DNA of 64,000 bases from contig JAUIBF010000001.1 in NCBI GenBank assembly GCA_030428125.1, positions 78,102-142,101 on the forward strand, written 5' to 3'. Origin of the DNA: a bacterium. Lineage in GTDB: Bacteria; Patescibacteriota; Saccharimonadia; Saccharimonadales; SZUA-47. The notes under the pieces were generated by a model. It did no database searches. It was not told the origin of the DNA and was given only the letters and a program-made list of their open reading frames with translations. Position numbers and translations under genes: made by a program. Of this stretch, positions 6,104 to 22,515 are shown piece after piece (the stretch's first letter is position 1; each line of letters begins with the position of its first letter).

Positions 6104-6110
6104 AGAACAA

Positions 6111-6187: not shown

Positions 6188-6196
6188 AATAAAGAC

Positions 6197-6838: not shown

Positions 6839-6853
6839 TGGTATTATTATTGC

Positions 6854-7717
6854 ATGCTCCCACAAAAATATGTGATTGCCGTATCTGGCGGTGTTGATTC
6901 AGTGGTTTTACTAGATATGTTGGCAACCAGAAAGCCAGAAAATATTAGTTATATTGTTGCTCACTTTGATCATGGAATTCGCGAAGACTCTAGTGACGAT
7001 TTAGATTTTGTTCGAAGCCTGGCTAAAAAATATGACTTAAATTTTATTTCAGAAAGTGGACAACTCGGTCCTGGCGTAAGCGAGGAAACTGCTCGTGAAG
7101 CCAGGTATGGGTTTTTAAGAAGAATAAAAAACGAGTTTAAGGCAGAAAAAATCGTAACTGCTCATCACCAGGATGACTTATTAGAAACCATGGTAATTAA
7201 TATTCTGCGTGGGACTAGTCCGCGTGGCTTAGCGCCGATGCGGGGGCATAAAGACATCCTTCGTCCTTTAATAAACAAGCAGAAAAGTGAACTCATTAAC
7301 TATGCCAGGGAAAATAAACTAGAGTGGCGAGAAGATTCGACAAATCTGGACGAAAAATATTTACGCAACTATGTGCGTATTAAAATCATGCCCGAACTAG
7401 AAAGTAAAAGAGAATACCTATTGGAACTTAATAAAAGAATCGAAAAAATATACATAGACATAGATTTGCGAGTAGATGGGCTTTTATACGGCCAGAAAGT
7501 TTTGTATAGACCTAGATTTTTGACTCTTCCCTATGTCGTTCAGCTAGAAATGACCAGAGCGTGGCTAATTAAGGCAGGTGTAAAAGATCTAGACAGAAAG
7601 ACGATTGAACGTATAACCAATGCTATTAAAACTTTGCCGACAAGCAAGAAAATCGACATCGATAATTCCAGATGGCTACAATCAGAAAAAGAAAATGTAT
7701 TGATTACTTCAAAATAA
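6854..7717 (+). CDS. tilS: tRNA(Ile)-lysidine synthetase, short form
   Basis: PP-loop VIAVSGGVDSVVLLDML, then HFDHGIR and TAHHQDD blocks typical of TilS. At 287 aa it lacks the long C-terminal domain. Confidence 0.85.
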   Translation: MLPQKYVIAVSGGVDSVVLLDMLATRKPENISYIVAHFDHGIREDSSDDLDFVRSLAKKYDLNFISESGQLGPGVSEETAREARYGFLRRIKNEFKAEKIVTAHHQDDLLETMVINILRGTSPRGLAPMRGHKDILRPLINKQKSELINYARENKLEWREDSTNLDEKYLRNYVRIKIMPELESKREYLLELNKRIEKIYIDIDLRVDGLLYGQKVLYRPRFLTLPYVVQLEMTRAWLIKAGVKDLDRKTIERITNAIKTLPTSKKIDIDNSRWLQSEKENVLITSK

Positions 7718-7808
7718 TAAGGGGTTGTAAGGTATAATCGATTTATAAGAAGTTAGTAAGCTAGAATGCTGACAAAATAATGCCATACGCAAAGGAATTA
7801 AATTAGGG

Positions 7809-9671
7809 ATGAATAAAAAACCAAGAGGGAAAAGGCCACAAGATAATAAGCGAGGCTATAAAACTTTAATTTTCGTAATTATCTTGATGTTCTTCGGGCT
7901 ATTTGCCATATCTAGCTATACAGGTGGTACAGAAGAACTAGAATCGGTTTCGTTTTCTGAAGTAATCCGACGGGCAAACGATGGAGAAATTAGTAAAATT
8001 GAAGTTGAAGGGGATGACTTGACGATTACCGAAGAAGGTAACGACGAGCCAACCCAGGAGTCGCGTAAAGAATCTGGCTCATCGATTTACGAACAAGGCC
8101 TAGAAAATCGAGACGTCGAAGTAGAAGTAGTAAAACCAGATAATTCTGGTGCTATTTGGCGCGATCTAGCAATAGGCTTGTTGCCAGTATTTATAATTGG
8201 TGGACTGCTGTTTTGGATGATGCGTAGCGCACAAGGCCAAGGTAATCAAGCAATGAGTTTCGGTCGTAGCAAAGCACGGCTTTACGGAAATGAAAAAGAA
8301 AAAGTCACTTTTAAAGACATCGCAGGTTCTAACGAAGCAAAAGAAGACTTAGAAGAAATTGTACAATTCCTAAAATTCCCGAAAAAATTTGAAGGCGTCG
8401 GCGCACGAATTCCAAAGGGTATGTTGCTAGTAGGCCCACCGGGAACAGGTAAAACCATGCTTGCTCGTGCAGTTGCAGGTGAAGCTAACGTGCCGTTCTT
8501 TAGTATCTCAGGTTCTGAGTTTGTTGAAATGTTTGTCGGGGTGGGTGCTTCACGTGTACGGGATCTATTCGCAAAAGCTAAGAAGAATTCCCCGTGCATT
8601 ATTTTCGTTGACGAAATTGACGCTGTTGGACGTCGCCGTGGTTCTGGTATGGGTGGAGGACATGATGAAAGAGAGCAAACTTTAAACCAAATTTTGGTTG
8701 AAATGGACGGATTTGAACAAGGTGTAAACGTAATTGTATTAGCTGCAACAAACCGTGCAGATGTGTTGGATCCTGCGTTACTCCGACCTGGCCGATTTGA
8801 CCGTAGGGTAAACATTACATTGCCTGACCGAAAAGATCGCGAAGCAATCCTGAAAGTCCACTACAAGAAAAAGCCATTAGAGAAAAACGTAGACCTAGAT
8901 GCGCTAGCTGCAAAGACGGCCGGCACAAGTGGAGCAGACCTTGCGAACATCGCAAACGAGTCTGCAATTGTCGCTGCTAAGCACAACCGTAAAACAATTA
9001 CCCAGACAGATGTAACTCAAGCCTTTGAAAAAGTGGCTATAGGGCCTGAGCGAAAAGGCAAAGTCATGAGCGAAAAAGAAAAAGAGCTCACAGCTTACCA
9101 TGAGGCGGGTCATGCGATTGTGGGACACGTGTTGCCGGACAGTGATGATGTGCATAAAGTTACTATTATTCCTCGCGGAGGAACAGGTGGAGTAACTTGG
9201 TTTATACCACCAGAGGATAAAAGCTATCACAGCATAGTAGAGTACAAAGACATTTTAGCCAGAATGCTAGGTGGGCGTATTGCAGAAGAAGTAATTTATG
9301 GCGCAGACCGTGTGACTACTGGTGCTGGAAACGATCTGCAAAAAGCCGCTGAGCTAGCTCGTGAAATGATAACTAATCAAGGCATGGGCAAGAAATTACG
9401 TAATCAGGTATTTCAAGTCGATGATGGCATGATTATGGATAAGATGATGCACGAGCGACAGTACTCTGACGAGACGGCCAAGATTATTGACGACGAAGTC
9501 GAAGCGCTTATCTCAGAAGCTGCAAAGCGCGCCCATGAAGTAATTGTTGCCAACAGAAAGAAATTAGAAGAGCTGAAAGACGAACTTCTAGAAAAAGAAA
9601 CTGTCGAAGATGCAGATGTTAAGAAAATCTTTGATGGAACAGTTTTACCTAAGTCGGCAACTCTTTACTAA
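7809..9671 (+). CDS. ftsH: ATP-dependent zinc metalloprotease FtsH
   Basis: Two N-terminal TM helices. Walker A GPPGTGKT, Walker [12 protein letters not shown] region, zinc site HEAGHA. Confidence 0.97.
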
Positions 9672-9706: not shown

Positions 9707-10333
9707 ATGTTACGTGTTGATATCCAGGCTGATGAAATACAGAGACAAGTTTGCGACACGACCCTCGAAGCCTTAAGTTCCAGACGTGCTTTTTTTGAAA
9801 CTAGAATTGAAGAGATCCCAACTGCAGAATTGGCCGAGGAGGCAATGAGACGAAGGGCCAGATGGCTAGCTAGGCCAATACGAGACTGGCATAGAGTGAA
9901 CAGAGCAACATTTTTTCCAGAGGGTCATAAGGACTCAATCTCGCAAAGGATATTATCTGCAGACAGATACGTACCAAGGCTTTCCATGGTTTCCGGACAC
10001 ATTGCTGCCGGATTAAGGAAAGCCGGAGAAGAGTTCGGGGAAGGCGCGGAATCACTAGCTGAGTATGATGTGTCAAGACTGGGGGTGAATTACATGAAGG
10101 GGCTAAGAGATGACCCAGCAGTAATTCCAAAGCATTTAGACGTAGCTGAAGAAAGAGGGGCAGTTGTAGTTCTTCCACTGCAGCATTCAGTAGGGACTTG
10201 GATTTGCGGAAGCAATATTCAAGTAATATTTGGGTCTGGACTCTGCAGAAACCTGCAAATGTTTCAACACGAACACGGTGTCGAATCTTCTCATCTGCGA
10301 GTCAGTGCAACAATTGCTGATTTGAGGGTGTAG
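9707..10333 (+). CDS. Lys-poor orphan protein (ORF-A), unknown function
   Basis: 208-aa ORF in an AT-rich genome. Arg/Glu/Ala-rich with only 4 Lys. No SD and no recognisable motif. GC visibly higher than in the neighbours. Confidence 0.45.
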   Translation: MLRVDIQADEIQRQVCDTTLEALSSRRAFFETRIEEIPTAELAEEAMRRRARWLARPIRDWHRVNRATFFPEGHKDSISQRILSADRYVPRLSMVSGHIAAGLRKAGEEFGEGAESLAEYDVSRLGVNYMKGLRDDPAVIPKHLDVAEERGAVVVLPLQHSVGTWICGSNIQVIFGSGLCRNLQMFQHEHGVESSHLRVSATIADLRV

Positions 10334-12012: not shown

Positions 12013-13791
12013 ATGAGTCAAGATAAAATTAGAAATTTTTGTATTATCGCGCATATAGATCACGGTAAAAGCACGCTTGCTGATAGGTTGTTAGAAATTA
12101 CCGAGACTGTCGATAAACGAGAGATGAAAGCCCAGCTCTTAGACAAGATGGACTTAGAGCGTGAGCGTGGTATAACAATAAAACTGGCTCCTGTTCGGAT
12201 GAGCTACAAAGGTTATCAGCTAAACTTAATTGATACACCTGGGCACGTTGATTTTAGCTACGAAGTCTCTAGAAGCTTGCAAGCTTGCGAAGGAGCAATA
12301 TTAGTTGTTGATGCATCTCAGGGTATTCAGGCACAAACTTTAGCAAATGTTTACCTGGCTATGGAAGCGAACTTAAAAATTATTCCAGTTTTAAATAAAA
12401 TTGATCTACCAGCAGCGGATGTGCCAAGAGTTACGAACGAAATAGTTAATCTCCTCGGCTGTGATGAAAGCGAAGTCCTAGCAATCAGCGCCAAAACAGG
12501 TCAGGGAGTCGAAGACTTGCTCGATAAGGTTCTAGAAGAAGTCCAAAGTCCGGCCGGCGAAAGCTCTGAAGATACGCGTGCATTAATATTTGATAGTTTT
12601 TACGATGAGTACCGTGGGGTTATTCTCTACGTTCGTGTAATTGACGGAAGCATAAAGAAAGGCGCAGAAATTAAGATGATGGCTACTGAAGCCGGAGGCG
12701 ACGCTCTGGAAGTTGGAGCGTTATCGCCGGGCATGAAGCCTTTCCAAGAACTTTCCACTGGCGAAATTGGTTATGTAGTAACAAACTTTCACGATACATC
12801 AGAAGCTAGAGTGGGCGACACGGTCTCCATCAAGAAGCAAAACCCTACGCCACTTGCTGGCTACAAAGAAGTGCGACCATTTGTATATGCAGGTTTTTTC
12901 CCTAGTAGTAACGAATTCTATCCTCAACTTAAAGATGCGATGGATAAACTTAAGCTTAGCGACTCGGCGCTAGACTACAAGCCAGAAAATTCTCCTGTTC
13001 TTGGGCATGGGTTTAGAATAGGTTTTCTAGGACTTCTTCATTTAGACATCGTCCGCGAGCGCATCGAACGAGAATTTGATATAGACCTAATCGTTACCAA
13101 TCCATCGACTGATTACAAGCTAGTGCTTAACGATATGACGGAGCTAGATATAACTAGCGCTAGTCAGGTGCCACCATCAAGCGAAATTTTAGAAATCAGT
13201 GAGCCTTGGATTAACGGTGAAATTGTAGTTCCTAAAGAGTATGTTGGTGCTGTGATTCAGCTGGTTACCTCAGCACGAGGAATGCAGAAAAACATTAGCT
13301 ATGTCGACGATCAGTTAGCATTGATTAAATTTGAAGCGCCACTTGCCAACCTACTGACAGATTTTTACGATAAACTTAAAAGCCAAACTTCAGGATACGG
13401 TAGTTTTAATTATGAACTCGACGATTATAGAGCAGGAGACCTAGTCAGATTGGACTTCTATGTTGCTGGGGACATCGTTGAAGCGCTAAGTGTTATGTGT
13501 CATAGGTCTGAATCACTAAGCCTAGGACGTCAAACAGTGGAAAAGTTGAAAGATATTATTCCTCGTCAGAACTTTAAAGTTGCTCTTCAAGCTGCAATCG
13601 GTGGTAAATTCATTGCTCGTGAAGATTTAAGCGCCTTCAGAAAAGATGTAACCAGTGGGCTATATGGTGGAGACGTGTCTAGAAAAAAGAAAGTTTTAGC
13701 AAAACAAAAGCGTGGTAAAGAAAGATTGAAACGATTTGGTAAAGTTGATTTGCCGGCTGAAGCATTTACTGTTTTGCTAAAAAGAGATTAA
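12013..13791 (+). CDS. lepA: Elongation factor 4 (LepA)
   Basis: GTPase motifs AHIDHGKST, DTPGHVDF, NKIDL. Conserved LepA C-terminal region. TATAAT at 12000-12005, only 7 nt before the ATG. Confidence 0.97.
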   Translation: MSQDKIRNFCIIAHIDHGKSTLADRLLEITETVDKREMKAQLLDKMDLERERGITIKLAPVRMSYKGYQLNLIDTPGHVDFSYEVSRSLQACEGAILVVDASQGIQAQTLANVYLAMEANLKIIPVLNKIDLPAADVPRVTNEIVNLLGCDESEVLAISAKTGQGVEDLLDKVLEEVQSPAGESSEDTRALIFDSFYDEYRGVILYVRVIDGSIKKGAEIKMMATEAGGDALEVGALSPGMKPFQELSTGEIGYVVTNFHDTSEARVGDTVSIKKQNPTPLAGYKEVRPFVYAGFFPSSNEFYPQLKDAMDKLKLSDSALDYKPENSPVLGHGFRIGFLGLLHLDIVRERIEREFDIDLIVTNPSTDYKLVLNDMTELDITSASQVPPSSEILEISEPWINGEIVVPKEYVGAVIQLVTSARGMQKNISYVDDQLALIKFEAPLANLLTDFYDKLKSQTSGYGSFNYELDDYRAGDLVRLDFYVAGDIVEALSVMCHRSESLSLGRQTVEKLKDIIPRQNFKVALQAAIGGKFIAREDLSAFRKDVTSGLYGGDVSRKKKVLAKQKRGKERLKRFGKVDLPAEAFTVLLKRD

Positions 13792-13800
13792 ATTATAAGT

Positions 13801-14046
13801 ATGAAAAAGAAACAAAACATCATTCAACGAGAAGAAGAATCGGTTAAAAAATTCAGAGACACTTATGCGAATAAATACCCGTGGCTATTCGCAGTAGCTG
13901 GCGCTTTCGGTATAGTTTCTACTTTTTACGGATTCGAGAAAATAATAGACAGGATTGATTTGTTCGCTGACAATCCATGGATTTTATTAGCCACAGGGCT
14001 AATAATCTTGGTAGTTACGGGTTCATTTTACAATAAGCTCCGATAG
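13801..14046 (+). CDS. Small two-TM membrane protein, unknown
   Basis: 81 aa. Basic N-terminus and two hydrophobic helices (WLFAVAGAFGIVSTFYGF; WILLATGLIILVVTGSF). Confidence 0.5.
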   Translation: MKKKQNIIQREEESVKKFRDTYANKYPWLFAVAGAFGIVSTFYGFEKIIDRIDLFADNPWILLATGLIILVVTGSFYNKLR

Positions 14047-14074
14047 GCTAACTGTTACAATAGACTTAAGGCAG

Positions 14075-14764
14075 ATGGAAAAAAAAGATTTTATAATTTG
14101 GGCTAGCAAGCTCCAGGCAGATTATCGACCTTCAGACGAAGTACTACAAAAAATATCCAAAGTCGATTTATTGGCGATAGTAGGACCTACAGGTGTAGGA
14201 AAAAGCACCTTAATTGAAAATCTGGAAATCGCAAAGGTTCTGAGTGATGTTTCTAGAGATAAGAGGCCGGGGGAAAAAGACGACAAGGATTATCATTTTC
14301 GCAAAGATTACCTAAGAATAATAGAGGAAATAAAAAAAGGAAATTATGTCCAGTTTTTGGTTAGTAGCAGTGGAGAATTTTATGGTACTCACATTTCCGC
14401 ATACCCAGATGAAGGACTTTGTACTATGGCAATCTATGCACATGCCATTCCCCTATTCACCAAGGTAGGGTTTAGAAGTGTAAAGCAGGCGTATATTATG
14501 CCCCCAAGTTACATTGAGTGGATGCACAGGATTGGTGGAGTGCGTACTAAAGATTTACTAATGCGTATCGGCGAGGCAAAGAATTCTGTCGAACAAGCTC
14601 TAGCAGATGAATCATATTCGTTCATACTTAACGACAGTTTGGATTACGCGCTAAGAGATATTCAGTCGGTGATTAATGGCGAGCCGGTCGACAATCACAG
14701 AGAAATGCTAGCAAGAGGCACAGCTGACCTGTTGTTGGAAAGAATCGGCGGCGAAGAAGTTTAG
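14075..14764 (+). CDS. Guanylate-kinase-like P-loop protein (divergent)
   Basis: P-loop IVGPTGVGKSTLIENL followed by SRDKRPGEKDDKDYHF, which resembles the guanylate kinase TTRxxRxGExxGxdYxF block. Confidence 0.55.
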   Translation: MEKKDFIIWASKLQADYRPSDEVLQKISKVDLLAIVGPTGVGKSTLIENLEIAKVLSDVSRDKRPGEKDDKDYHFRKDYLRIIEEIKKGNYVQFLVSSSGEFYGTHISAYPDEGLCTMAIYAHAIPLFTKVGFRSVKQAYIMPPSYIEWMHRIGGVRTKDLLMRIGEAKNSVEQALADESYSFILNDSLDYALRDIQSVINGEPVDNHREMLARGTADLLLERIGGEEV

Positions 14765-14888
14765 TATTTATATACGAGACAAACCGAACTATATATCTCT
14801 AGTTCTAGAATACAGACTGCTAAACCAGCAGAAAACCGTAAGTTAGCTGAAGAATTGCTAGTCAAGGCTACAATTATTTAAAGTGAAA

Positions 14889-14926
14889 CTAGCAATCTTG
14901 CACGTCGAGTGCTAAAACGCTATAAT
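14889..14926 (+). promoter_or_regulatory. CIRCE operator overlapping the hrcA promoter
   Basis: CTAGCAATC-N9-GAGTGCTAA (14889-14915) versus consensus TTAGCACTC-N9-GAGTGCTAA. TTGCAC (14898-14903), 17 nt, TATAAT (14921-14926). ATG is 10 nt later. Confidence 0.8.
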
Positions 14927-14936
14927 TCTAAGCATT

Positions 14937-15638
14937 ATGACCGAACGTCAAGAAAAGATTTTGCGTGCTATCGTAGAGGAATATGCAGAAGTAGCTAGTC
15001 CAGTTGGTTCGCAATTGCTTGCTAAAATTTTCAATGTTTCAAGCGCTACAATTCGATCAGAAATGGCTGAGCTAGAGCGACAAGGTTACATTAAGCAGCC
15101 TCATACATCTGCAGGAAGAATTCCAAGCGATAAGGGGTATAGGTTTTACGTTAACCAGGCAGCAGAAGAAGAATCCGAAGCTCCAGCTAGTGCTGAACGT
15201 GCTTTAACTGCACGAATTGGTGAAGGTAGTGTTCCTGAAAGAGCTATTAAGAACACAGTAGATACTCTCGTCGAGTTGACTCAAAATCTCGGCGTAGCTA
15301 CCATTGGAAATCAGCTTTATATGTCTGGACTTTCTAATCTGTTTGGACAGCCAGAATTTATGAACTCTCAGCAGGTAAAAGAAGTAGCACAGCTTCTAGA
15401 CAATTTAGAACCATGGCTTCGTGAGGCAGCACCAAACAAACCATTAAGTGTCTACATTGGTAAAGAAAATCCAATCGGTAGAAACAGCGGTTGTTCGTTG
15501 ATAATCAGTAAATTCCGTAGTCCGTACTCAGATAAAAGTTTCATAGGTGTATTGGGGCCGACTCGTCAGAGTTACCGTGAAGTAATGGGCCTTGTAGAAA
15601 ACGCCGGACAAATGTTGGAGCGAGCACTTTATGCCTAG
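14937..15638 (+). CDS. hrcA: Heat-inducible transcription repressor HrcA (short form)
   Basis: N-terminal wHTH ERQEKILRAIVEEYAEVASPVGSQLLA...SSATIRSEMAELERQGYI..PHTSAGRIPSDKGYRFYV. C-terminal GVLGPTRQSYREVMGLV block. 233 aa. Confidence 0.9.
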   Translation: MTERQEKILRAIVEEYAEVASPVGSQLLAKIFNVSSATIRSEMAELERQGYIKQPHTSAGRIPSDKGYRFYVNQAAEEESEAPASAERALTARIGEGSVPERAIKNTVDTLVELTQNLGVATIGNQLYMSGLSNLFGQPEFMNSQQVKEVAQLLDNLEPWLREAAPNKPLSVYIGKENPIGRNSGCSLIISKFRSPYSDKSFIGVLGPTRQSYREVMGLVENAGQMLERALYA

Positions 15639-15873
15639 CACCCCTAGAGATTTAAATGATCACTGGTTTGCTCATTTAGTTCATAGCGTGGATGCCGCTA
15701 CTGAACGTGCTGCAGGCGAGCCTGTAACATTTAGTCAGAGTGCAAGTCTGGGACGATTCATTACCCCTGATGTTATTGCAAATCCTGGAGAAGTTGTTGA
15801 GGCAAGAGATAAAATGCAGAGACACTTATCAGGAATTTTTGAAGTTATCAAAGGAGTAAAACGTGGCGAATAA
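15631..15873 (+). CDS. Lys-poor orphan protein (ORF-B) wedged between hrcA and grpE
   Basis: 80 aa. The start overlaps the hrcA stop by 8 nt and the stop overlaps the grpE GTG start by 11 nt. No known motif. Confidence 0.45.
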   Translation: MPSTPRDLNDHWFAHLVHSVDAATERAAGEPVTFSQSASLGRFITPDVIANPGEVVEARDKMQRHLSGIFEVIKGVKRGE

Positions 15874-16345
15874 GAAAAAAGAAGAAAAGATAGATTATCA
15901 GAAAGTCGCCGAAGAGTTAGCACAGGAAAATGCCAATTTAAACGACGCACTGCTTCGTGAACGTGCTGATGCAGAAAATGTTCGACGTCGTGCACAAGAC
16001 GAAAAAGTCAAAATGGCTGGCTATCACAAGGCGTCAGTGGTTAAAGAGTTACTTCCTGTAATTGACAACTTTGAACGGGCATTAAAAGCTACACCCAAAG
16101 ATTTAGAGGGTAATGACTACGTCAGAGGAATTGAAGGAATTGTTAAGCAGTTCGCACAAACATTAAACAAACTAGGCGTCGAGAGAATCAAAACCGTTGG
16201 CGAGCATTTCGATCCGGAACTTCACGAAGCTGTAACTATGGAAGAAGGTGAAGGTGAGCATGAAATCGTATCTGAAGAACTACAAAGCGGCTACAAACTA
16301 GGCGATGAAGTAATTCGTCACGCAATGGTTAGGGTTAAATCGTAA
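15863..16345 (+). CDS. grpE: Nucleotide exchange factor GrpE
   Basis: GTG start with AAGGAG SD at 15851-15856. Coiled-coil N-terminus (LRERADAENVRRR) and a C-terminal GrpE beta domain (FDPELHEAV...GYKLGDEVIRHAMV). Confidence 0.93.
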   Translation: MANKKKEEKIDYQKVAEELAQENANLNDALLRERADAENVRRRAQDEKVKMAGYHKASVVKELLPVIDNFERALKATPKDLEGNDYVRGIEGIVKQFAQTLNKLGVERIKTVGEHFDPELHEAVTMEEGEGEHEIVSEELQSGYKLGDEVIRHAMVRVKS

Positions 16346-16400
16346 CCATTTTTATTCGTAGTAATTTTAAGTTATGATTACACTCGAACAAGGAGAAAAT

Positions 16401-16694
16401 ATGGGACAGTACAGAGCCAATGGAGAAAATGAGATCGGCGAACTTTTTACACTAGAAGGAGATGCACTCGCAAGAGCAGGACTCTCCGAACCTGACTTAA
16501 CTCACGCTCCAGAAGAGTATCCAGGAAGGCAACCTGATTCATCGGCAGTAGCTACAACTCTTGGTAACGAATGGGACGCGTCGGGCAATGCACTTATGTA
16601 CACCGAAAGTAATGCACGAGCAGTGCAGGAGTGGAGAAGATTAGAGAACGAAGGAGTCTTGTCTACAGGTGGAATTTTCAGAGCAATTGAGTAA
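16401..16694 (+). CDS. Lys-free acidic orphan protein (ORF-C)
   Basis: ATG at 16401 preceded by AAGGAG (16390-16395). 97 aa with no lysine. Coupled to the next ORF (TAATG). Confidence 0.55.
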   Translation: MGQYRANGENEIGELFTLEGDALARAGLSEPDLTHAPEEYPGRQPDSSAVATTLGNEWDASGNALMYTESNARAVQEWRRLENEGVLSTGGIFRAIE

Positions 16695-16981
16695 TGGCAC
16701 ACTATGAGCCGGTGGGTGAGTATACACATCCAACATATGTAGGCATCGCGCGATGTAAGCATGATCAATTATTAACATCAGAAGCTGATAGAAACAGTAC
16801 GTTTGCTATAGATTTGCACGTTGCAAGAGAAAGAGTCCAAGCATCAGGTCCGGTTGTTGTCGATATTGCTATTCAGGGGTTTAAAGACGGTGGAGAAATT
16901 AGCATCTCTGTGCAGCAAAGTTTAGAGCACTGTCTTGGAATAATAGCCTCAGGTGGGTGTCCCAGCTACCCAACAACTTAA
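16694..16981 (+). CDS. Lys-poor orphan protein (ORF-D)
   Basis: 95 aa. The start overlaps the ORF-C stop. 2 Lys. No known motif. Confidence 0.5.
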   Translation: MAHYEPVGEYTHPTYVGIARCKHDQLLTSEADRNSTFAIDLHVARERVQASGPVVVDIAIQGFKDGGEISISVQQSLEHCLGIIASGGCPSYPTT

Positions 16982-16984
16982 GAA

Positions 16985-17057
16985 TTAGCACTCATAGGTC
17001 TTGACTGCTAATTTTTGATTTGCTACACTTTTAGCAGAAGCACACATAGAGTGCTAA
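16985..17057 (+). promoter_or_regulatory. Two tandem CIRCE operators bracketing the dnaK promoter
   Basis: TTAGCACTC-N9-GACTGCTAA (16985-17011) and TTAGCAGAA-N9-GAGTGCTAA (17031-17057). TTGACT (17001-17006), 17 nt, TACACT (17024-17029) lies between and overlaps them. Confidence 0.85.
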
Positions 17058-17092
17058 TTATTAGTAAGAATTTTATAAAAGGGGAAAATTCC

Positions 17093-19003
17093 GTGGGAAA
17101 AATTATCGGTATCGATCTAGGTACAACTAACTCAGCGATGGCTGTAATGCAATCTGGTAAGCCAGAAATTATCGCTAATAACGAAGGAAACAGAACAACT
17201 CCTTCGGTAGTTGCTGTTAACAAAAAAGGCGAACGGCTTGTCGGTCAAGTTGCTCGACGTCAGCAGGTTACTAATTCAAAGAACACCATTTATGAAGTAA
17301 AGCGATTAATCGGACGTAAGTTTAGCGATAAAGAAGTCCAAAAAGACCTTAAGTTAATGGGTTACGAAATCATTAAAAGTGGCACCAAGACTAAAGTAAA
17401 AATGGCTGACAAAGAATATAGCCCAGAAGAAATTAGTGCCATGATTCTTGGCAAGCTAAAAGCAGATGCTGAAGAATTCCTGGGTGAACCAGTAACCGAA
17501 GCTGTTATTACCGTTCCGGCATATTTTGATGACTCACAACGTCAAGCTACGAAAGACGCTGGTAAGATTGCAGGCCTGGAAGTTAAGCGTATTATTAACG
17601 AGCCAACTGCGGCAGCGCTTGCATACGGACTTGATAAAGAAGGTAAAAAAGACGAAAAGATTGCTGTTTACGACCTTGGTGGTGGTACGTTTGACGTATC
17701 TATCCTAGAGCTAGGTGACGGAGTATTCGAGGTTAAATCTACAAATGGTGATACACACCTTGGTGGTGCGGACTTCGACCGCGTTATCGTTAACCACCTT
17801 GCTGACGAGTTCAAAAAAGAACATGGCATGGACATCACTGACGCGAAAGATGCTATGCAACGTCTGCGTGACGAAGCAGAAAAGGCTAAAATTGAGCTTT
17901 CTACAGCGCAAGAAGTGGACATCAACCTTCCGTTCTTAACAGCTGATGCAGATGGTCCAAAACACTTTGAATACAAACTGACACGAAGCAAACTTGAGAG
18001 CCTAGTTGCAGATCTTATCGACAAGACTGCATCTCCATGCGAGAAAGCTCTAAAAGACGCAGGCCTGAAGGCTAGTGAAGTAGATGCAGTTGTATTGGTT
18101 GGTGGTATGACGCGTATGCCAGCTGTACAAGAAAAAGTGAAGAAGATATTCGGAAAAGACCCGATGAAAGGTGTGAACCCTGATGAGGTTGTAGCTGTTG
18201 GAGCGGCCATCCAGGGTGGAGTTTTGGCAGGCGATGTCAAGGATGTGTTGCTATTAGACGTAACACCGCTAAGTCTTGGTATCGAAACTATGGGCGGAAT
18301 CGCGACTAAGTTGATTGAGAGAAACGCGACCATCCCGACATCTAAGAGCGAGGTCTTTTCTACTGCCGCTGACAATCAGCCACAAGTGGAAATCCACGTC
18401 GTTCAAGGCGAGCGTGAAATGGTTGCTGATAACAAGTCTCTTGGACGATTCATCTTAGACGGTATCGCACCAGCGCCACGTGGTATGCCACAAATCGAAG
18501 TTACATTTAACATCGATGCTAACGGTATCTTGAACGTTACTGCTAAAGACAAGGGAACTGGTAAAGAGCAATCTATTACTATTCAAGACAGCTCAGGCTT
18601 GTCTAAAGAAGAAGTCGAGAAAATGGCTAAAGATGCAGAAGCCCACGCTGAAGAAGATAAGAAAAAGCGCGAAGCTATCGAATCACGTAACTTATTAGAA
18701 AATTCAATCTACCAGGCAGAGAAGTTTGTTGCTGACAACAAAGACAAACTATCTGACGAGGACAAGAAGACTCTTGAAGACGCTACAAAAGAAGCCAAAG
18801 AGAAATTAGCAGACGAAAAAGCAGACAAAGATGCACTAGAAGAAGCAGCTAAAGAACTATCTGACAAGATGATGCCAATTGGCGCCAAAATGTATGAAGA
18901 GGCTGCCAAAGAAAATGAAGGCAAAGAAGGGGATTCTGACGAAAAGTCAGATGATGACGAGCCAGTAGAAGGCGAAGTCGTTGACGAAAAGGACGATAAA
19001 TAA
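17093..19003 (+). CDS. dnaK: Chaperone DnaK (Hsp70)
   Basis: GTG start ([14 protein letters not shown]) with purine-rich SD at 17077-17085. DLGGGTFD, the EEVD-less acidic tail and full-length Hsp70 motifs are present. The ORF-track TTG at 17015 lies inside the operators. Confidence 0.97.
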
Positions 19004-19103
19004 TCTATGCTTAAACGCGAAAAAAGCCAAGGAGCTTTATCAAAGCCTAGAGTTCCGTAACTAATCCTTAAAATCATTAAATAACTTTTTAAGGAGACGT
19101 ATT

Positions 19104-19550
19104 ATGGACGCTTTTTCGCGTTTTAACGATGCCAGTTCTTCGGCTGGCATAATAAATAATTCATACGAAAAACTAATGGGAAATACCCCGTGGCTACCAC
19201 AGGAGTACAAGCCCGGCTTCGACATGGAAGTTAGGCAAAGGTCCTTAGTGCTAGGTGCTATTGCTGCTAATTTGCTTCAACGAAGGCTTACTATAACCGA
19301 CTATGTCGGCAATCAATCCCAATCAAGGAGCTACGAGCTAGATTTAGAGCACGATTTCGGGCCTCTGGAAAACGAACATTTTTTCTTTTATGTAGGGCCA
19401 AATGGTCTAAAAAGATTTAAATATGAAAACGATCGAGATTCTAGGCGGACTCTTAGGCGTAATCGTTCAGCTAACTTTATGAGATACATAAATATGCTTT
19501 CATGGACTATTGAAGTCAGTGGCGGGGACACTCAGGCTAGTGGAGATTAG
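19104..19550 (+). CDS. Lys-poor orphan protein (ORF-E)
   Basis: 148 aa. AAGGAG SD at 19091-19096. Followed by a strong terminator. No known motif. Confidence 0.55.
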   Translation: MDAFSRFNDASSSAGIINNSYEKLMGNTPWLPQEYKPGFDMEVRQRSLVLGAIAANLLQRRLTITDYVGNQSQSRSYELDLEHDFGPLENEHFFFYVGPNGLKRFKYENDRDSRRTLRRNRSANFMRYINMLSWTIEVSGGDTQASGD

Positions 19551-19570
19551 TATAATGCTAAATAGTAATG

Positions 19571-19596
19571 GCACCCCCAAGGGGGTGTCATTTTTT
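19571..19596 (+). terminator. Rho-independent terminator after ORF-E
   Basis: GCACCCCC-aa-GGGGGTGT stem followed by TTTTTT. Confidence 0.85.
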
Positions 19597-19610
19597 ACCC
19601 AGAGGAGTAT

Positions 19611-19627
19611 ACTATACCTGTAAAGAG
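19611..19627 (+). repeat. 17-nt exact repeat ACTATACCTGTAAAGAG, copy 1 (upstream of ORF-F)
   Basis: Identical 17-mer also at 19969-19985. Each ends 9 nt before an ATG and supplies an AAAGAG SD-like tract. Confidence 0.8.
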
Positions 19628-19636
19628 ATTTATTTC

Positions 19637-19942
19637 ATGGCGACAGAGTTTGATTTTTATGTAAGTGATGAATCGTCCAGGGAGTTAGTTAGAAGACTAC
19701 GTGGTGAAGTTGAATTTGGAGTGCCACCCGAAACTGTTTGTGTGGACGGACTTGGAAAAACTCTTCAATATCCCGATGGTAGAGATATTGATGGCGAAAG
19801 AGTTGGAGCACTTGTTGGACGCTCGGGTATGCGCCTAACAAATGCAGGAGCAGCCCAAGTGATTATAGAGGCAGACGCTTTTGCTGACGATGTGTGCAGA
19901 GCGCTCATCAAGCTCAATCAATCCGACACACGGGTATCTTAA
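19637..19942 (+). CDS. Lys-poor orphan protein (ORF-F)
   Basis: ATG at 19637 (MATEFDFYVSDESS...). The ORF-track start at 19568 lies inside the preceding terminator. 101 aa with 2 Lys. Confidence 0.5.
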   Translation: MATEFDFYVSDESSRELVRRLRGEVEFGVPPETVCVDGLGKTLQYPDGRDIDGERVGALVGRSGMRLTNAGAAQVIIEADAFADDVCRALIKLNQSDTRVS

Positions 19943-19968
19943 TTACCAAAAGTTAAAAAATAGAGTAG

Positions 19969-19985
19969 ACTATACCTGTAAAGAG
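19969..19985 (+). repeat. 17-nt exact repeat ACTATACCTGTAAAGAG, copy 2 (upstream of VKOR)
   Basis: Identical to 19611-19627. Confidence 0.8.
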
Positions 19986-19994
19986 GGTATAGCT

Positions 19995-20588
19995 ATGGCT
20001 AAAAAGACAAAAGAATCAAAAATAACTTATCCACGTTTGCTGGTCGGGGCATCGGCAGTTGGATTAATCGCTGCATTTTGGCAGATGGTGGAGCGTGTTC
20101 ACATGCTCAAGAATCCAGGGGATCCCCTGTCGTGTAACCTTAATCCCGTTGTAGATTGTGGAAGTGTTCTAGGCGATAGTCTGGCGTCAGTATTTGGTCC
20201 ACCAAATGCACTTATCGGAGTAGTGATGTTTACGATGTTGCTAACATTAGGTTTACAGAGACTTTACGGTGGCCAATGGACAAAACTAACCAAGATTCTA
20301 GGTGTAGCGCTAAGTACAATCGCACTGCTGTTTAGTCTATGGTTCTTCCACGTAAGTTTGTATGTTATAGGAAAGGTTTGTATTTTCTGCATATTCATAT
20401 GGGCAGCTAGTGTGCCAATCGGCATTTATGGAGCCAAAGACTTCCTAGACGGCATGACCAAGCCAAAAGGTGTCTATAAATGGAAGCGTGATTTACTAGA
20501 CAAATACCATTTGTTAGTTCTGTTCGGTTTATACGCTGTAATGCTCGGATTATTCCTCGTCAGATTTAGTGATTATTACTTCGGTTAA
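19995..20588 (+). CDS. Vitamin K epoxide reductase (VKOR) family disulfide-generating membrane protein
   Basis: Start at ATG 19995 (MAKKTKESK). Loop cysteines LSCNLNPVVDCGSVL, PNALIG block and active-site CIFC in a TM helix. 4 TM helices. Confidence 0.8.
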   Translation: MAKKTKESKITYPRLLVGASAVGLIAAFWQMVERVHMLKNPGDPLSCNLNPVVDCGSVLGDSLASVFGPPNALIGVVMFTMLLTLGLQRLYGGQWTKLTKILGVALSTIALLFSLWFFHVSLYVIGKVCIFCIFIWAASVPIGIYGAKDFLDGMTKPKGVYKWKRDLLDKYHLLVLFGLYAVMLGLFLVRFSDYYFG

Positions 20589-20591
20589 GAT

Positions 20592-20621
20592 TTGGCACTC
20601 AAGGTGCTAAAGTGCTAAAAT
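20592..20621 (+). promoter_or_regulatory. CIRCE operator overlapping the dnaJ promoter
   Basis: TTGGCACTC-N9-AAGTGCTAA (20592-20618). TAAAAT at 20616-20621 lies 7 nt before the dnaJ ATG. Confidence 0.75.
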
Positions 20622-20628
20622 AATACAA

Positions 20629-21726
20629 ATGGCTAAACGTGATTATTATGAAGTATTGGGCGTTTCTAAAGGCGCTTCAGACGATGAAATAAAGAAGGCT
20701 TTCCGCCGGAAAGCCATTGAATTACACCCTGATAAAGAAGGTGGTGACGAAACTAAGTTCAAAGAAGTTAACGAAGCCTACGAAGTCTTAAAAGACAGTG
20801 CGAAACGTCAAAGATATGACCAATTTGGTCATGCCGGGGTTGGTGGCAATGGTGGTGGTGGAAATCCATTTGGTGGATTCGGTGGCCAAGGTCAGAGTGT
20901 TAACTTTGATTTCGGTGACCTAGGTGGACTAGGTGATATCTTTGGGAGTTTCTTCGGTGGTGGGCAGCAACGACAAAAGCGACCAGACAGAGGGCGTGAT
21001 GTTGAAATGGAGCTGGGACTTGATTTCGAAGAAGCAGTTTTCGGAGTAGAGACTGAAGTTAAATTAAACTTAAACGATACTTGCGACCATTGTAAGGGAA
21101 AAACTGTTGAACCTGGTCATGAGCTGAAAACATGTGCAACCTGTAAAGGTTCAGGCCAAGAAGTTCATGTCGCTCAAACAATCTTTGGGAATATACAGCA
21201 AGCAACGGTTTGCCGAACCTGTAAGGGTAAAGGTAAAGTTCCTGAAAAGAAATGTACAGTTTGTAATGCAACTGGCGTTCAGCGCAAGGATAAGAATGTC
21301 AAAATCAAAGTTCCGGCTGGAATTGATGATGGTGCAACCATACGCTTAAGAGAATATGGAGAAGCAGTAGCAAACGGAGCAAAAGGTGATCTATACGTAC
21401 ATATTAGAGTAGCTCCACATAAAGAATTTACTCGCGAAGGTGAGCTGATTTTAAGTAAAGTCCACATTCCTATGGTTGACGCGACATTGGGAACGGAAAT
21501 TGATGTAGAGACTGTAGATGGACCTGTGAAAATGAAAGTCCCAGCAGGAACTCAAAGCGGGACAGACTTTAAGCTTTCAGACCACGGCGTACCTCATCTC
21601 AGAGGCGAAAAACGTGGTGCGCACATCGTCACCGTAAACGTCGACATCCCTACTAAGCTAACAAAAGAACAAAAAGAACTTCTAGAACAGTTTAAGGCGT
21701 CCCATAAAAAGGGCTGGTTTAAATAA
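20629..21726 (+). CDS. dnaJ: Co-chaperone DnaJ
   Basis: J domain with HPD (ELHPDKEG), a G/F-rich linker and four CxxCxGxG zinc-finger repeats (CDHCKGKT, CATCKGSG, CRTCKGKG, CTVCNATG). Confidence 0.97.
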   Translation: MAKRDYYEVLGVSKGASDDEIKKAFRRKAIELHPDKEGGDETKFKEVNEAYEVLKDSAKRQRYDQFGHAGVGGNGGGGNPFGGFGGQGQSVNFDFGDLGGLGDIFGSFFGGGQQRQKRPDRGRDVEMELGLDFEEAVFGVETEVKLNLNDTCDHCKGKTVEPGHELKTCATCKGSGQEVHVAQTIFGNIQQATVCRTCKGKGKVPEKKCTVCNATGVQRKDKNVKIKVPAGIDDGATIRLREYGEAVANGAKGDLYVHIRVAPHKEFTREGELILSKVHIPMVDATLGTEIDVETVDGPVKMKVPAGTQSGTDFKLSDHGVPHLRGEKRGAHIVTVNVDIPTKLTKEQKELLEQFKASHKKGWFK

Positions 21727-21736
21727 TGACGGCAAG

Positions 21737-21815
21737 CCTTATGAGGGGAGAATATCTCCGGCACGTCGAGCAGGGTGCGAAATGAATTCGACACTCTGTC
21801 TACTCCCCCTCTAGC
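21737..21815 (+). repeat. Structured 3' intergenic element, copy A (of 3)
   Basis: CCTTATGAGGGGAG...GGCACGTCGA...GTCTACTCCCCCTCTAGCT. GAGGGGAG (21743-21750) can pair with CTCCCCCTC (21803-21811). It shares CTTATGAG, GGCACG, TCGA, a C-rich tail and TAGCT with copy B, and GTCTACTC with copy C. Confidence 0.5.
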
Positions 21816-21979
21816 TACATGAGAATTCAGATGATATCATTAAGCTAATGCTTCAGAAAAATAACAAAAATTCCGAACACGGTTTTATTACCATGATTGT
21901 CATGATGGTTATTATTCTGGCAGCAGTTTTATTCTTAGCTTATCAAAGAGTACAGAACGCCTCCTAACAGGGGTAGATA

Positions 21980-22008
21980 TTGACTAAAATCCCTATAGGT
22001 GATATAAT
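21980..22008 (+). promoter_or_regulatory. Near-consensus promoter of the rimK operon (leaderless-type)
   Basis: TTGACT (21980-21985), 17 nt, TATAAT (22003-22008). ATG is 9 nt downstream with no SD. Confidence 0.65.
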
Positions 22009-22017
22009 AATATAGTT

Positions 22018-22515
22018 ATGGCAAAATATAAAACAATTATCGGTCGCGCAGAACTTTTGGATCTTCCTGCAAGGTTACTTACTGATATTCCTGCGAAAAC
22101 TGACACCGGTGCTTATTTGTCATCTATACATGCTACGAATATTCGTGAAGTAAAAAAGAAAAATGGTAAAACTGTCCTGAAGTTTAATTTATTGGAAGGA
22201 CACGGAGCATATAACTATAGCCGAGAAATTGAAATGCCGAATTTTGAAAAAACTAAGGTAGAAAACTCCTTTGGTGAACAGCAAGAACGCTACAAGGTAG
22301 AGTTTAAAGTTCGAATTGGTGGTAAAGTGTTCCGTACACCATTCACGCTAGCAGATCGTTCCAAGAAAGTGTTCCCAATCCTGTTAGGGCGGACATTATT
22401 AAACAAGCGATTCTTAGTAGATACCGATATCGCTCACATTGACCGAAAGCAGCTCAAGGAAAAACTTAAAGATTGGCTTGCCAAAGACGATAAAATGGAC
22501 GAGAGCGTAGCTTAA
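22018..22515 (+). CDS. RimK-associated retropepsin-like aspartic peptidase domain protein
   Basis: AKTDTGAYLSS (D-T-G-A signature) and ILLGRTLL..FLVD blocks, as in the ATP-dependent zinc protease/retropepsin-like family usually encoded beside rimK. Confidence 0.7.
   Translation: MAKYKTIIGRAELLDLPARLLTDIPAKTDTGAYLSSIHATNIREVKKKNGKTVLKFNLLEGHGAYNYSREIEMPNFEKTKVENSFGEQQERYKVEFKVRIGGKVFRTPFTLADRSKKVFPILLGRTLLNKRFLVDTDIAHIDRKQLKEKLKDWLAKDDKMDESVA

What the first reader, a model, noticed from the sequence alone, without database searches (positions are those of the whole stretch)
15631..19942. Lysine-poor orphan ORFs intercalated in the hrcA-grpE-dnaK-dnaJ heat-shock locus
Five ORFs with plausible starts interrupt the normally contiguous chaperone operon: B 15631-15873, C 16401-16694, D 16694-16981, E 19104-19550 and F 19637-19942. 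AAGGAG SDs precede C and E, and B-C-D overlap their neighbours.

Their composition is anomalous for this genome. By direct count, Lys is 3/80, 0/97, 2/95, 4/148 and 2/101. The neighbouring GrpE has 16/160. The ORFs are Arg/Glu/Gly/Ala-rich and visibly more GC-rich.

ORF-B is wedged between hrcA and grpE with overlaps at both ends, so it must be co-translated with the regulon. I recognise no motif in any of them.

Possible explanations: acquisition from a higher-GC donor (the hosts of such epibionts are high-GC Actinobacteria); lineage-specific co-chaperones or stress proteins; or fast-evolving effectors expressed under CIRCE control.
Basis: seen in the sequence. Interest (0 to 1): 0.6.

Follow-up and report, generated by a model that had tools for sequence, protein, structure and literature searches.

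The report
Fast-evolving small genes between heat-shock genes
Five small lysine-poor genes between the heat-shock chaperone genes of this Saccharibacteria (TM7) genome look native and fast-evolving: three have diverged relatives in the same positions in related genomes, two are unique to this genome, and none looks imported from a GC-rich host.

Summary
The five ORFs exist as described, and the lysine counts, ribosome-binding sites and overlaps check out. The window is a Saccharibacteria genome.

- **B, C and D are real genes.** Their families are narrow and found only in Saccharibacteria. B has pN/pS of 0.22 in frame and at least 1 out of frame. D has dN/dS of 0.09-0.15 and three invariant cysteines. 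Each family always occupies the same junction.
- **E and F have no relative.** E was tested against 1.84 billion proteins, F by a word-seeded search. F has native codon usage and E is marginal. An intrinsic terminator lies just after E.
- **A high-GC donor is not supported.** GC3 and codon usage are native, and the extra GC comes from a specific Lys-to-Arg shift. Small ORFs at these junctions show the same shift in 51 of 53 related loci.
- **These junctions are interrupted across the phylum.** The cluster carries a CIRCE operator before each of hrcA, dnaK and dnaJ. Most inserts sit at the 3' ends of these units. Strains 95-97% identical differ by exact ORF-for-ORF swaps.

Function is unknown; a role with the chaperones, like DafA in Thermus, is possible but unshown. 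The result is ordinary but tidy, of moderate interest.

The parts
14889..14915 (+). CIRCE operator (2 mismatches) 22 nt upstream of hrcA
   Evidence: 4 CIRCE-like sites in the window against 0.02 expected; a CIRCE lies upstream of hrcA in 63 of 68 related loci.
14937..15638 (+). hrcA, short form (233 aa)
   Evidence: Pfam HrcA, 2.6e-20, covering only model positions 106-215 of 215; matches 1STZ only over the N-terminal wHTH.
15631..15873 (+). ORF B, 80 aa. A real gene, with start and stop overlapping hrcA and grpE (translational coupling inferred)
   Evidence: a 79-aa orthologue with the same geometry in L081-L086 (76% aa identity); differences by codon position are 15/9/39; pN/pS is 0.22 in frame and 1.03/1.46 out of frame; codon score 0.241, typical of genes; distant homologues in L003 and L089.
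15863..16345 (+). grpE (160 aa, GTG start, AAGGAG SD inside B)
   Evidence: Pfam GrpE, 3.4e-43. Sequence read.
16401..16694 (+). ORF C, 97 aa, no Lys, acidic. The conserved N-terminal ~40 aa define a 3-member family
   Evidence: homologues L037:9760-9981 and L050:7461-7691, both between grpE and dnaK. Their aligned starts support ATG 16401; codon score 0.289.
16694..16981 (+). ORF D, 95 aa. Member of a family found only in Saccharibacteria, with invariant C21, R45, C80, I84 and C89
   Evidence: 9 clusters among 5.8 billion, and 10 loci; every member whose context could be read lies after grpE and before dnaK; dN/dS 0.09-0.15 in three close pairs; four-helix model, pLDDT 71.6; no PDB fold match.
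16985..17057 (+). Two CIRCE operators (16985-17011 and 17031-17057) with a promoter-like site, upstream of dnaK
   Evidence: a CIRCE lies upstream of dnaK in 57 of 78 loci; nucleotide similarity to L081 resumes at 16983, right after D's stop.
17093..19003 (+). dnaK (GTG start)
19104..19550 (+). ORF E, 148 aa, an ORFan specific to this genome. Probably real and probably the second cistron of the dnaK unit
   Evidence: an exhaustive phmmer search finds only itself. AAGGAG 7 nt upstream; a terminator 17 nt downstream, and none between dnaK and E; codon score 0.100 (7th percentile of true genes), but the best of six frames.
19567..19598 (+). Intrinsic terminator: 11-bp GC-rich hairpin followed by a U6 run
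   Evidence: -19 kcal/mol, z -3.8, no shuffle of 200 folds as well.
19605..19627 (+). Copy 1 of a 23-nt direct repeat (promoter -10-like plus 5'UTR/SD), 9 nt before F's ATG
   Evidence: 2 copies, 22 of 23 identical, 0 expected by chance; a promoter-like site at 19585-19613.
19637..19942 (+). ORF F, 101 aa, an ORFan specific to this genome, with its own promoter-like site
   Evidence: only itself among 5.8 billion clusters; codon score 0.230, typical of genes. The terminator lies inside the longer 19568 reading, so ATG 19637 is the start.
19963..19985 (+). Copy 2 of the 23-nt direct repeat, 10 nt before the VKOR ATG
19996..20588 (+). VKOR-family membrane protein
   Evidence: PF07884, 6.2e-30; present next to dnaJ in some relatives.
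20592..20618 (+). CIRCE operator (2 mismatches) overlapping a promoter-like site, upstream of dnaJ
20629..21726 (+). dnaJ

Best explanation
B to F are native, lineage-restricted, fast-turnover small protein genes. They sit at the permissive junctions of the Saccharibacteria heat-shock gene cluster.

**Layout of the cluster.** It is best read as three units, each headed by its own CIRCE operator:
- hrcA-B-grpE-C-D
- dnaK-E, followed by a terminator
- dnaJ

F and VKOR lie between the last two, on a duplicated promoter/5'UTR element.

**Expression.** The inserted genes borrow the expression signals of their neighbours. B is translationally coupled to hrcA and grpE. C, D and E are trailing cistrons, so they should be made whenever the HrcA/CIRCE regulon is on.

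**Turnover.** Occupants are replaced often. The likely route is homologous recombination, with the highly conserved chaperone genes acting as homology arms. That is why closely related strains carry different or very divergent occupants.

**Composition.** The Lys-poor, Arg-rich make-up is a property of this class of young, fast-evolving proteins across the phylum. It is not a mark of foreign DNA.

**What is shown and what is inferred.**
- Shown: B and D are coding and under purifying selection, C has position-conserved homologues and native codon usage, the families are narrow, the composition and codon usage are native, and the junctions vary across the phylum.
- Inferred: co-transcription, translational coupling, the recombination mechanism, and any cellular role.
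For: **Real genes**
- B: pN 0.155 against pS 0.76, and a frame control of 0.22 against 1.03 and 1.46.
- D: dN/dS 0.09-0.15 in three independent pairs.
- Codon scores of B, C and F equal those of true genes, and the annotated frame is the best of six for all five.
- Across relatives, the + strand open frame covers 0.88 of expanded hrcA|grpE gaps, against 0.50 in shuffles.

**Narrow families**
- D has 9 clusters, all Saccharibacteria. C has 3 members.
- B is found in L081-86, L003 and L089.
- E and F match only themselves.
- There are no Pfam, PHROG, NCBIfam, PADLOC or Rfam hits.

**Native composition**
- GC3 z is -2.4 to +1.1.
- The shift is specific to K and R: K 2.1% against 6.6%, R 7.9% against 4.3%. 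The other residues track the proteome (r = 0.81).
- Small ORFs at these junctions have less Lys than long ORFs in 51 of 53 loci (p = 5e-10).

**Architecture**
- Four CIRCE sites in the window and their distribution across the phylum.
- A terminator after E and no terminator inside hrcA..D.

**Turnover**
- Gap ranges across 80 loci.
- The junctions hold unrelated families.
- L081 and L085 are 95-97% identical, yet they differ by exact ORF-for-ORF replacements between the grpE stop and the dnaK CIRCE, and after dnaK.
- D is 29% identical between the window and L081, where GrpE is 91% and DnaK 96%. D is 82% identical in L003/L089 at the same GrpE distance.
- The order of the two ORFs in the hrcA|grpE junction is swapped between L003 and L089.

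**Literature**
- McLean et al. 2020 (PMC7427843) report high synteny in G1 Saccharibacteria, gain of single genes by homologous recombination, and no strong sign of transfer from Actinomyces.
Against: - No expression or peptide data exist. Co-transcription and coupling are read from sequence only.
- E's codon score is marginal, and neither E nor F can be tested for selection because no second sequence exists.
- The persistence of B and D at one position, under selection, could mean a chaperone-specific role rather than simple borrowing of expression signals.
- Junctions outside the heat-shock genes are also variable (lepA|gmk, gmk|hrcA, dnaJ|rimB). The 'conserved flanks as homology arms' idea is therefore not specific to this locus and is untested.
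- The reference set for the Lys comparison includes very Lys-rich chaperones. Some small ORFs at these junctions in other genomes may be spurious.
Confidence: 0.6

Rival explanations
1. B, and perhaps C and D, are dedicated accessory subunits or regulators of the HrcA-GrpE-DnaK machine, found only in Saccharibacteria. The model is DafA, the small protein of the Thermus thermophilus DnaK system that assembles the DnaK-DnaJ complex. B would be made in fixed ratio with HrcA and GrpE through coupled translation. D, with three invariant cysteines, could be a thiol or metal switch.
For: - B overlaps both neighbours and is under purifying selection.
- About a quarter of related loci carry a coupled small ORF that fills the hrcA|grpE gap.
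- D lies between grpE and dnaK wherever its context could be read, has dN/dS near 0.1, and has invariant C21, C80 and C89.
- HrcA in this phylum lacks about 100 residues of the canonical protein, which leaves room for a partner supplied separately.
- DafA is a precedent for a small lineage-specific chaperone factor (PMC3727329).
Against: - Most Saccharibacteria have no ORF in the hrcA|grpE junction; the median gap is 22 nt.
- The occupants of each junction are unrelated families.
- D is replaced by an unrelated ORF in a strain 95-97% identical.
- There is no sequence or fold similarity to any chaperone component.
- B does not match the Pfam HrcA model.
Confidence: 0.17
2. The ORFs were acquired horizontally from a high-GC donor, such as the actinobacterial host. 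Their Lys-poor, Arg-rich composition would be the remaining trace of that origin.
For: - Total GC is slightly raised (z +0.7 to +2.6), and there is a Lys-to-Arg shift of the kind seen in GC-rich proteomes.
- F is bracketed by a 23-nt direct repeat.
Against: - GC3 is normal or low, and codon usage is native.
- No homologue exists outside Saccharibacteria for D, E or F.
- The same shift is seen in small ORFs at these junctions in 51 of 53 Saccharibacteria loci, whose GC ranges from 0.39 to 0.57.
- The literature reports no strong host-to-TM7 transfer signal.
Confidence: 0.04
3. E and/or F are not genes. They would be chance open frames in a spacer left behind by gene turnover between dnaK and VKOR.
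For: - No homologue exists anywhere.
- E's codon score is at the 7th percentile of true gene segments, and 11% of spurious ORFs score higher.
- The dnaK|dnaJ junction is the most variable in the phylum.
Against: - An open frame of 148 codons has a chance of about 1e-4 per frame at this composition (my estimate from a stop frequency near 0.06).
- E has a strong AAGGAG at the right spacing and a terminator placed after E rather than after dnaK.
- F's codon score equals that of true genes, and no spurious ORF scores higher.
- The annotated frame is the best of six for both.
Confidence: 0.15
4. The ORFs are secreted or injected host-interaction effectors. Their lack of lysine would protect them from lysine-directed tagging or degradation, such as pupylation, in the actinobacterial host.
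For: - Lys is specifically replaced by Arg while total basic charge is kept (K+R 10.0% against 10.9%).
- Evolution is fast and content is strain-specific.
- The other Lys-poor proteins of the window are large proteins with at most a sub-threshold Pfam hit, and look like envelope proteins.
Against: - None has a signal peptide or membrane segment, by reading the sequences.
- The genes sit in a cytosolic chaperone cluster, not near secretion genes.
- There is no homology to known effectors.
- Nothing here bears on secretion or on the host.
Confidence: 0.04

Closest known systems
DafA (DnaK-DnaJ assembly factor A) of Thermus thermophilus
   Same: It is a small lineage-specific protein with no wider family that works with the DnaK system. 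It forms a DnaK3-DnaJ3-DafA3 complex (PMC3727329). From my own knowledge, not checked here, it is about 8 kDa and encoded inside the dnaK operon.
   Different: - No sequence comparison with DafA could be made, because no DafA sequence was on hand.
- No binding data exist for B to F.
- DafA sits after dnaJ, whereas these ORFs sit at hrcA|grpE, grpE|dnaK and after dnaK.
- The occupants here differ between close strains, which is not expected of an essential assembly factor.
Extended CIRCE/HrcA dnaK operons of Firmicutes, such as the heptacistronic Bacillus subtilis hrcA-grpE-dnaK-dnaJ-orf35-orf28-orf50 operon (from my own knowledge, not checked here)
   Same: The core gene order hrcA-grpE-dnaK-dnaJ and the CIRCE operator are the same. 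Extra, functionally unrelated cistrons ride on heat-shock transcription.
   Different: - In Firmicutes the extra genes are conserved housekeeping genes appended after dnaJ.
- Here the extras are tiny orphan genes placed between the core genes, and dnaK and dnaJ carry their own CIRCE.
ORFans and accessory genes in gene-flux hotspots flanked by core genes (general concept of bacterial pan-genomics, from my own knowledge)
   Same: - They are short, lack annotation, and have a narrow distribution.
- Presence or absence varies between near-identical strains.
- Insertion points are bounded by highly conserved genes.
   Different: - Typical ORFans are more AT-rich than their genome and are often linked to phages or mobile elements.
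- These have native GC3 and slightly higher GC1 and GC2.
- They have no phage or mobile-element hits.
- B and D are under clear purifying selection.

Membership tests
Any curated protein family (Pfam-A, NCBIfam, PHROGs, PADLOC) | A profile match at or near the family threshold | tested here: not met
   no families for B, C, D, E or F, at E up to 1 for Pfam and up to 0.1 for the other three.
CIRCE/HrcA regulon member | A CIRCE operator upstream of the transcription unit that contains the gene | tested here: met
   CIRCE at 14889-14915 (before hrcA-B-grpE-C-D) and at 16985-17057 (before dnaK-E). Four sites against 0.02 expected.
CIRCE/HrcA regulon member | No terminator or separate promoter between the operator and the gene | tested here: inconclusive
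   no terminator from hrcA through D, or between dnaK and E. For F the feature is not met: a terminator at 19567-19598 and a promoter-like site at 19585-19613 lie between E and F. Pattern scans are not proof.
CIRCE/HrcA regulon member | Induction by heat or by loss of HrcA | not testable with these tools
   Needs RNA-seq or qPCR under heat shock.
Recent horizontal acquisition from a high-GC donor | Raised GC3 and foreign codon usage | tested here: not met
   GC3 0.25-0.40 (z -2.4 to +1.1); codon log-odds within the range of native genes.
Recent horizontal acquisition from a high-GC donor | Homologues in the putative donor group | tested here: not met
   D has only Saccharibacteria relatives. 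E has none among 1.84 billion representatives. F has none. B and C were searched only in 92 loci and by pattern scans.
DafA-like chaperone assembly factor | A small protein encoded inside the dnaK gene cluster | tested here: met
   proteins of 80-148 aa lie between hrcA, grpE, dnaK and dnaJ.
DafA-like chaperone assembly factor | Sequence or structural homology to DafA | not tested
   No DafA sequence was available. PDB sequence and fold searches gave nothing significant.
DafA-like chaperone assembly factor | Forms a complex with DnaK and DnaJ | not testable with these tools
   Needs pull-down or co-folding.
Protein-coding gene under selection (as opposed to a chance ORF) | Excess of synonymous over non-synonymous change in the annotated frame only | tested here: met
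   B: (0.22 against 1.03 and 1.46). D: (0.09-0.15). C: homologues exist, but no dN/dS was computed. E and F cannot be tested because no second sequence exists.
Toxin-antitoxin or anti-phage defence module (considered for E and F) | A match to known defence or TA profiles, and an operonic gene pair | tested here: not met
   no PADLOC hit. E and F are separated by a terminator.

The most novel reading that the evidence does not exclude
The hrcA|grpE and grpE|dnaK junctions of Saccharibacteria may encode a previously unrecognised class of small Lys-poor partner proteins of the Hsp70/HrcA system. B would be coupled in fixed ratio to a truncated HrcA. D would be a three-cysteine helical switch. Both would be swapped between strains like alleles to retune the stress response of an obligate epibiont.
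Probability: 0.12. Interest if true: 0.6.

Novelty: new member of a known kind. Interest (0 to 1): 0.35.

Why it matters
The result separates a composition anomaly from horizontal transfer. The Lys-to-Arg shift marks a class of young, fast-evolving small proteins in Saccharibacteria, not foreign DNA.

It also identifies three undescribed small-protein families (B, C, D). B and D show measurable purifying selection, and all three hold a fixed position in the heat-shock cluster.

It shows that the junctions between the most conserved genes of these tiny genomes are sites of ORF-for-ORF exchange between strains. That bears on how genomes of the candidate phyla radiation, which are reduced and highly syntenic, still generate strain-level novelty.

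If B or D does act on HrcA, GrpE or DnaK, it would be a rare lineage-specific Hsp70 cofactor. Genetic tools for Saccharibacteria have been reported (from my own knowledge), which should make that testable.

Tried and rejected
- **Concatenated E+F query.** It returned nothing, not even the proteins themselves, so I treat it as a failed search. E was redone exhaustively and F alone.
- **Remote homology among the small ORFs of the three junctions.** All-against-all hhalign over 19 families or singletons gave a best probability of 11%. They are unrelated, or diverged beyond detection.
- **B as the missing piece of the truncated HrcA.** B has no match to the Pfam HrcA model at E up to 1. Most Saccharibacteria have the short HrcA without any ORF in the hrcA|grpE junction.
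- **Random-sequence composition as the cause of the Lys poverty.** Only K and R fit that idea. The overall composition is closer to the proteome (r = 0.81) than to random translation (r = 0.55).
- **PDB sequence hits.** Residues 89-110 of E match designed 'Bagel' propellers. Residues 5-29 of F match polyubiquitin ('LVRRLRGE' against 'LVLRLRGG'). No single stretch passes on its own, and the whole-sequence E-values are inflated by the repeats. Both are rejected as chance.
- **Fold search with the D model.** The best E-value was 3.6.
- **Phage or mobile origin.** No PHROG hits, no phage tblastn hits for E or F, and no viral-contig relatives of B or C. The viral scan for D could not run.
- **JGI metagenome scans for B and C.** No relatives were found.
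- **Non-coding RNA.** No Rfam match in 13700-22100 at E up to 1.
- **Close-strain contigs L087 and L088.** They are 100% identical to the window and add nothing.
- **An iterated B profile.** It pulled in L003:712-1056 only through the shared hrcA-overlap frame ('MPDKCWSV'), and I discounted that hit.

Full report
**Setting**

The window is from a Saccharibacteria (TM7) genome. Its DnaK is 79-88% identical to 80 species-representative Saccharibacteria loci. The five ORFs are on record as called genes on a 558-kb NCBI contig.

The local gene order, is:
- lepA, a small membrane ORF, and a guanylate-kinase-like gene
- CIRCE (14889-14915), hrcA (14937-15638), B (15631-15873), grpE (15863-16345), C (16401-16694), D (16694-16981)
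- two CIRCE (16985-17011 and 17031-17057), dnaK (17093-19003), E (19104-19550)
- F (19637-19942), VKOR (19996-20588)
- CIRCE (20592-20618), dnaJ (20629-21726)

**Checking the observation**

The coordinates, start codons, AAGGAG sites before C and E, the overlaps hrcA/B, B/grpE and C/D, and all lysine counts are correct. C does not overlap grpE.

Against 57 reference genes of the window:
- Each ORF lies in the lowest 16% for Lys.
- K/(K+R) has z from -1.9 to -4.3. C, E and F fall below every reference gene.

Total GC is only modestly raised (0.43-0.48 against 0.409). GC3 is ordinary or low (0.25-0.40). The extra GC therefore sits in codon positions 1-2 and reflects amino-acid content.

Pooled, the five proteins differ from the proteome mainly by Lys (2.1% against 6.6%) and Arg (7.9% against 4.3%). 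K+R is nearly unchanged. The rest tracks the proteome (r = 0.81) better than random translation (r = 0.55). The anomaly is a specific replacement of Lys by Arg.

**Are they genes?**

*B.* Strains with 91% identical GrpE (L081-L086) carry a 79-aa ORF with the same start (MPSTPR) and the same overlaps. It is 76% identical to B.
- The 63 nucleotide differences fall 15/9/39 by codon position.
- pN/pS is 0.22 in frame, and 1.03 and 1.46 in the other two frames.
- More distant B-type ORFs sit in the same junction in L003 and L089 (pairwise E of 1e-5 to 1e-6).

All are Saccharibacteria 'hypothetical proteins'. Where the context could be read, they lie directly after grpE and before dnaK.
- C21, R45, C80, I84 and C89 are invariant.
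- dN/dS is 0.09, 0.14 and 0.15 in three independent close pairs.

*C.* Two homologues in the same junction (L037 and L050) share its N-terminal 40 residues. Their starts support ATG 16401.

*E and F.* Neither has a relative. E was searched by exhaustive phmmer against 1.84 billion representatives. F was searched by a word-seeded search of 5.8 billion clusters. Neither matches anything in the 92 fetched loci or in phage records.

*Codon usage.* I trained a codon log-odds model on the window's confident genes. True 100-codon segments average 0.226, and spurious ORFs average -0.061.

| ORF | Score | Note |
|---|---|---|
| B | 0.241 | typical of true genes |
| C | 0.289 | typical of true genes |
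| F | 0.230 | typical of true genes |
| D | 0.167 | lower range of true genes |
| E | 0.100 | 7th percentile of true segments |

The annotated frame is the best of six for all five. E also has a strong SD and an 11-bp, -19 kcal/mol hairpin with a U-run 17 nt after its stop. There is no terminator between dnaK and E.

I rate B, C and D as certain genes, F as likely, and E as probable.

**What they are not**

- No match in Pfam, NCBIfam, PHROGs or PADLOC, and no Rfam match.
- PDB sequence hits are either absent or artefacts of repeated targets.
- The AlphaFold model of D is a four-helix bundle (9-sequence alignment, pLDDT 71.6, pTM 0.60) with no PDB fold match.
- B folded alone gives two long helices at low confidence (pLDDT 60).
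- None has an N-terminal hydrophobic signal or a membrane segment, by reading the sequences.
- Nothing supports a high-GC donor: GC3 and codon usage are native, and no homologue lies outside Saccharibacteria.
- McLean et al. 2020 also found no strong signal of transfer from Actinomyces to TM7x (PMC7427843).

**The wider pattern**

In 80 related loci the order hrcA-grpE-dnaK-dnaJ is kept, but the gaps vary.

| Junction | Gap range (nt) |
|---|---|
| hrcA\|grpE | -25 to 620 |
| grpE\|dnaK | 14 to 5583 |
| dnaK\|dnaJ | 42 to 8262 |

- A CIRCE precedes hrcA in 63 of 68 loci, dnaK in 57 of 78, dnaJ in 13 of 68, and grpE in 1 of 74. Apart from hrcA|grpE, the variable junctions are the 3' ends of transcription units.
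- Other junctions nearby are variable too (lepA|gmk, gmk|hrcA, dnaJ|rimB). Others are tight (tilS|ftsH, rimB|rimK, rimK|DUF192). The heat-shock cluster is therefore not unique in this respect.
- Expanded gaps are mostly open on the + strand: 0.88 of the hrcA|grpE gap, against 0.70 on the minus strand and 0.50 in shuffles.
- The occupants fall into many small families and singletons with no detectable relation to one another.
- In the dnaK|dnaJ gap they also include CutA1, NUDIX, a PIF1 helicase and VKOR.
- In 51 of 53 loci the small ORFs of the first two junctions have less Lys than the long ORFs of the same locus (3.5% against 7.1%, p = 5e-10). They have more Arg in 41 of 53.
- Within the window, the other Lys-poor proteins mostly lack a Pfam match as well.

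The Lys-to-Arg shift is thus a property of this class of protein.

**Turnover**

- L081 and L085 are 95-97% identical in DNA. L081 has a D-family gene after grpE, and L085 has an unrelated 128-aa ORF there. The similarity breaks 8 nt before the grpE stop and resumes 6 nt before the occupant's stop, so both strains share the whole dnaK CIRCE region. Further single-ORF differences follow dnaK.
- The window's D is 29% identical to L081's D, although GrpE is 91%, DnaK 96% and HrcA 97% identical. L003 and L089, at the same GrpE distance, share 82% in D.
- Between L003 and L089 the two ORFs of the hrcA|grpE junction are only 24-32% identical, and their order is swapped.

These discordances fit replacement of the occupants by recombination between lineages, with the conserved chaperone genes as homology arms. 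That step is inferred, not shown.

**How it most likely works**

- B is translated by coupling from hrcA into grpE.
- C and D are trailing cistrons of the CIRCE-controlled hrcA unit.
- E is the second cistron of the CIRCE-controlled dnaK unit, which ends at the hairpin after E.
- F has its own promoter-like site. Its -10 and 5'UTR lie in a 23-nt repeat (22 of 23 identical) that also precedes VKOR.

The proteins are therefore expected to rise with the heat-shock regulon. Whether they act on the chaperones is open. The closest precedent for that is DafA of Thermus. Against it are the patchy distribution, the unrelated occupants and the strain-level replacement.

**Verdict**

The foreign-origin reading is not supported. 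The finding belongs to a familiar kind, lineage-specific small genes in flexible junctions. It yields three new families and a clean phylum-wide composition signature. Interest is moderate to low (0.35).

Noticed in passing
window 9707-10333 (+): A sixth ORF of the same kind. It is 208 aa, with Lys 1.9%, Arg 11% and GC 0.466, and has no family hit and no homologue in any fetched locus. It sits between ftsH and murJ. In the close relative L085 those two genes are only 62 nt apart.
   Followed up: partly
window 14937-15638; all hrcA hits in L001-L080: HrcA is a short form of 233 aa, against 338 aa for T. maritima 1STZ. Pfam's HrcA C-terminal model is matched only at positions 106-215 of 215, and the PDB match covers only the winged-helix domain. 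The short form is shared by all 73 related loci that have hrcA.
   Followed up: partly
window 19605-19627 and 19963-19985: A 23-nt direct repeat, GAGTAnACTATACCTGTAAAGAG (22 of 23 identical, 0 expected), lies 9-10 nt before the ATGs of F and of VKOR. It carries a -10-like hexamer and an SD-like AAAGAG. It is not found upstream of VKOR in relatives, nor in any other locus. It suggests that F was installed by duplication of VKOR's expression signals.
   Followed up: partly
L081:5864-6194 against L085 (ORF B and the start of grpE): A 330-nt stretch has no differences between two strains that differ at about 2.7% in the flanks, where about 9 differences would be expected. This may be a recent recombination tract or a constraint at the nucleotide level.
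   Followed up: no
L003:712-1259 against L089:408-934: The two small ORFs between hrcA and grpE are in opposite order in two genomes whose GrpE is 90% identical. They are only 24-32% identical, while the D gene downstream is 82% identical.
   Followed up: partly
window 19649-19723 (F residues 5-29): 'SDESSRELVRRLRGEVEFGV' resembles the ubiquitin C-terminus and repeat junction '[20 protein letters not shown]'. The E-value is inflated by polyubiquitin repeats, and no single stretch is significant. I judge it to be chance.
   Followed up: partly
window 41052-42668, 46165-51303, 52287-53357: Three large proteins of 538, 1712 and 356 aa have Lys of 2.2%, 1.0% and 0.6%. None has a Pfam match above threshold. 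They have hydrophobic N-termini and are probably envelope or surface proteins. They are the main reason why low Lys alone is not unique in this genome.
   Followed up: partly
dnaK|dnaJ gap in L004, L009, L012, L081, L085 and others: In relatives this gap holds CutA1 (18 loci), a 125-152-aa family (7 loci), NUDIX, a PIF1-type helicase and VKOR in varying combinations. The window has only E, F and VKOR.
   Followed up: no
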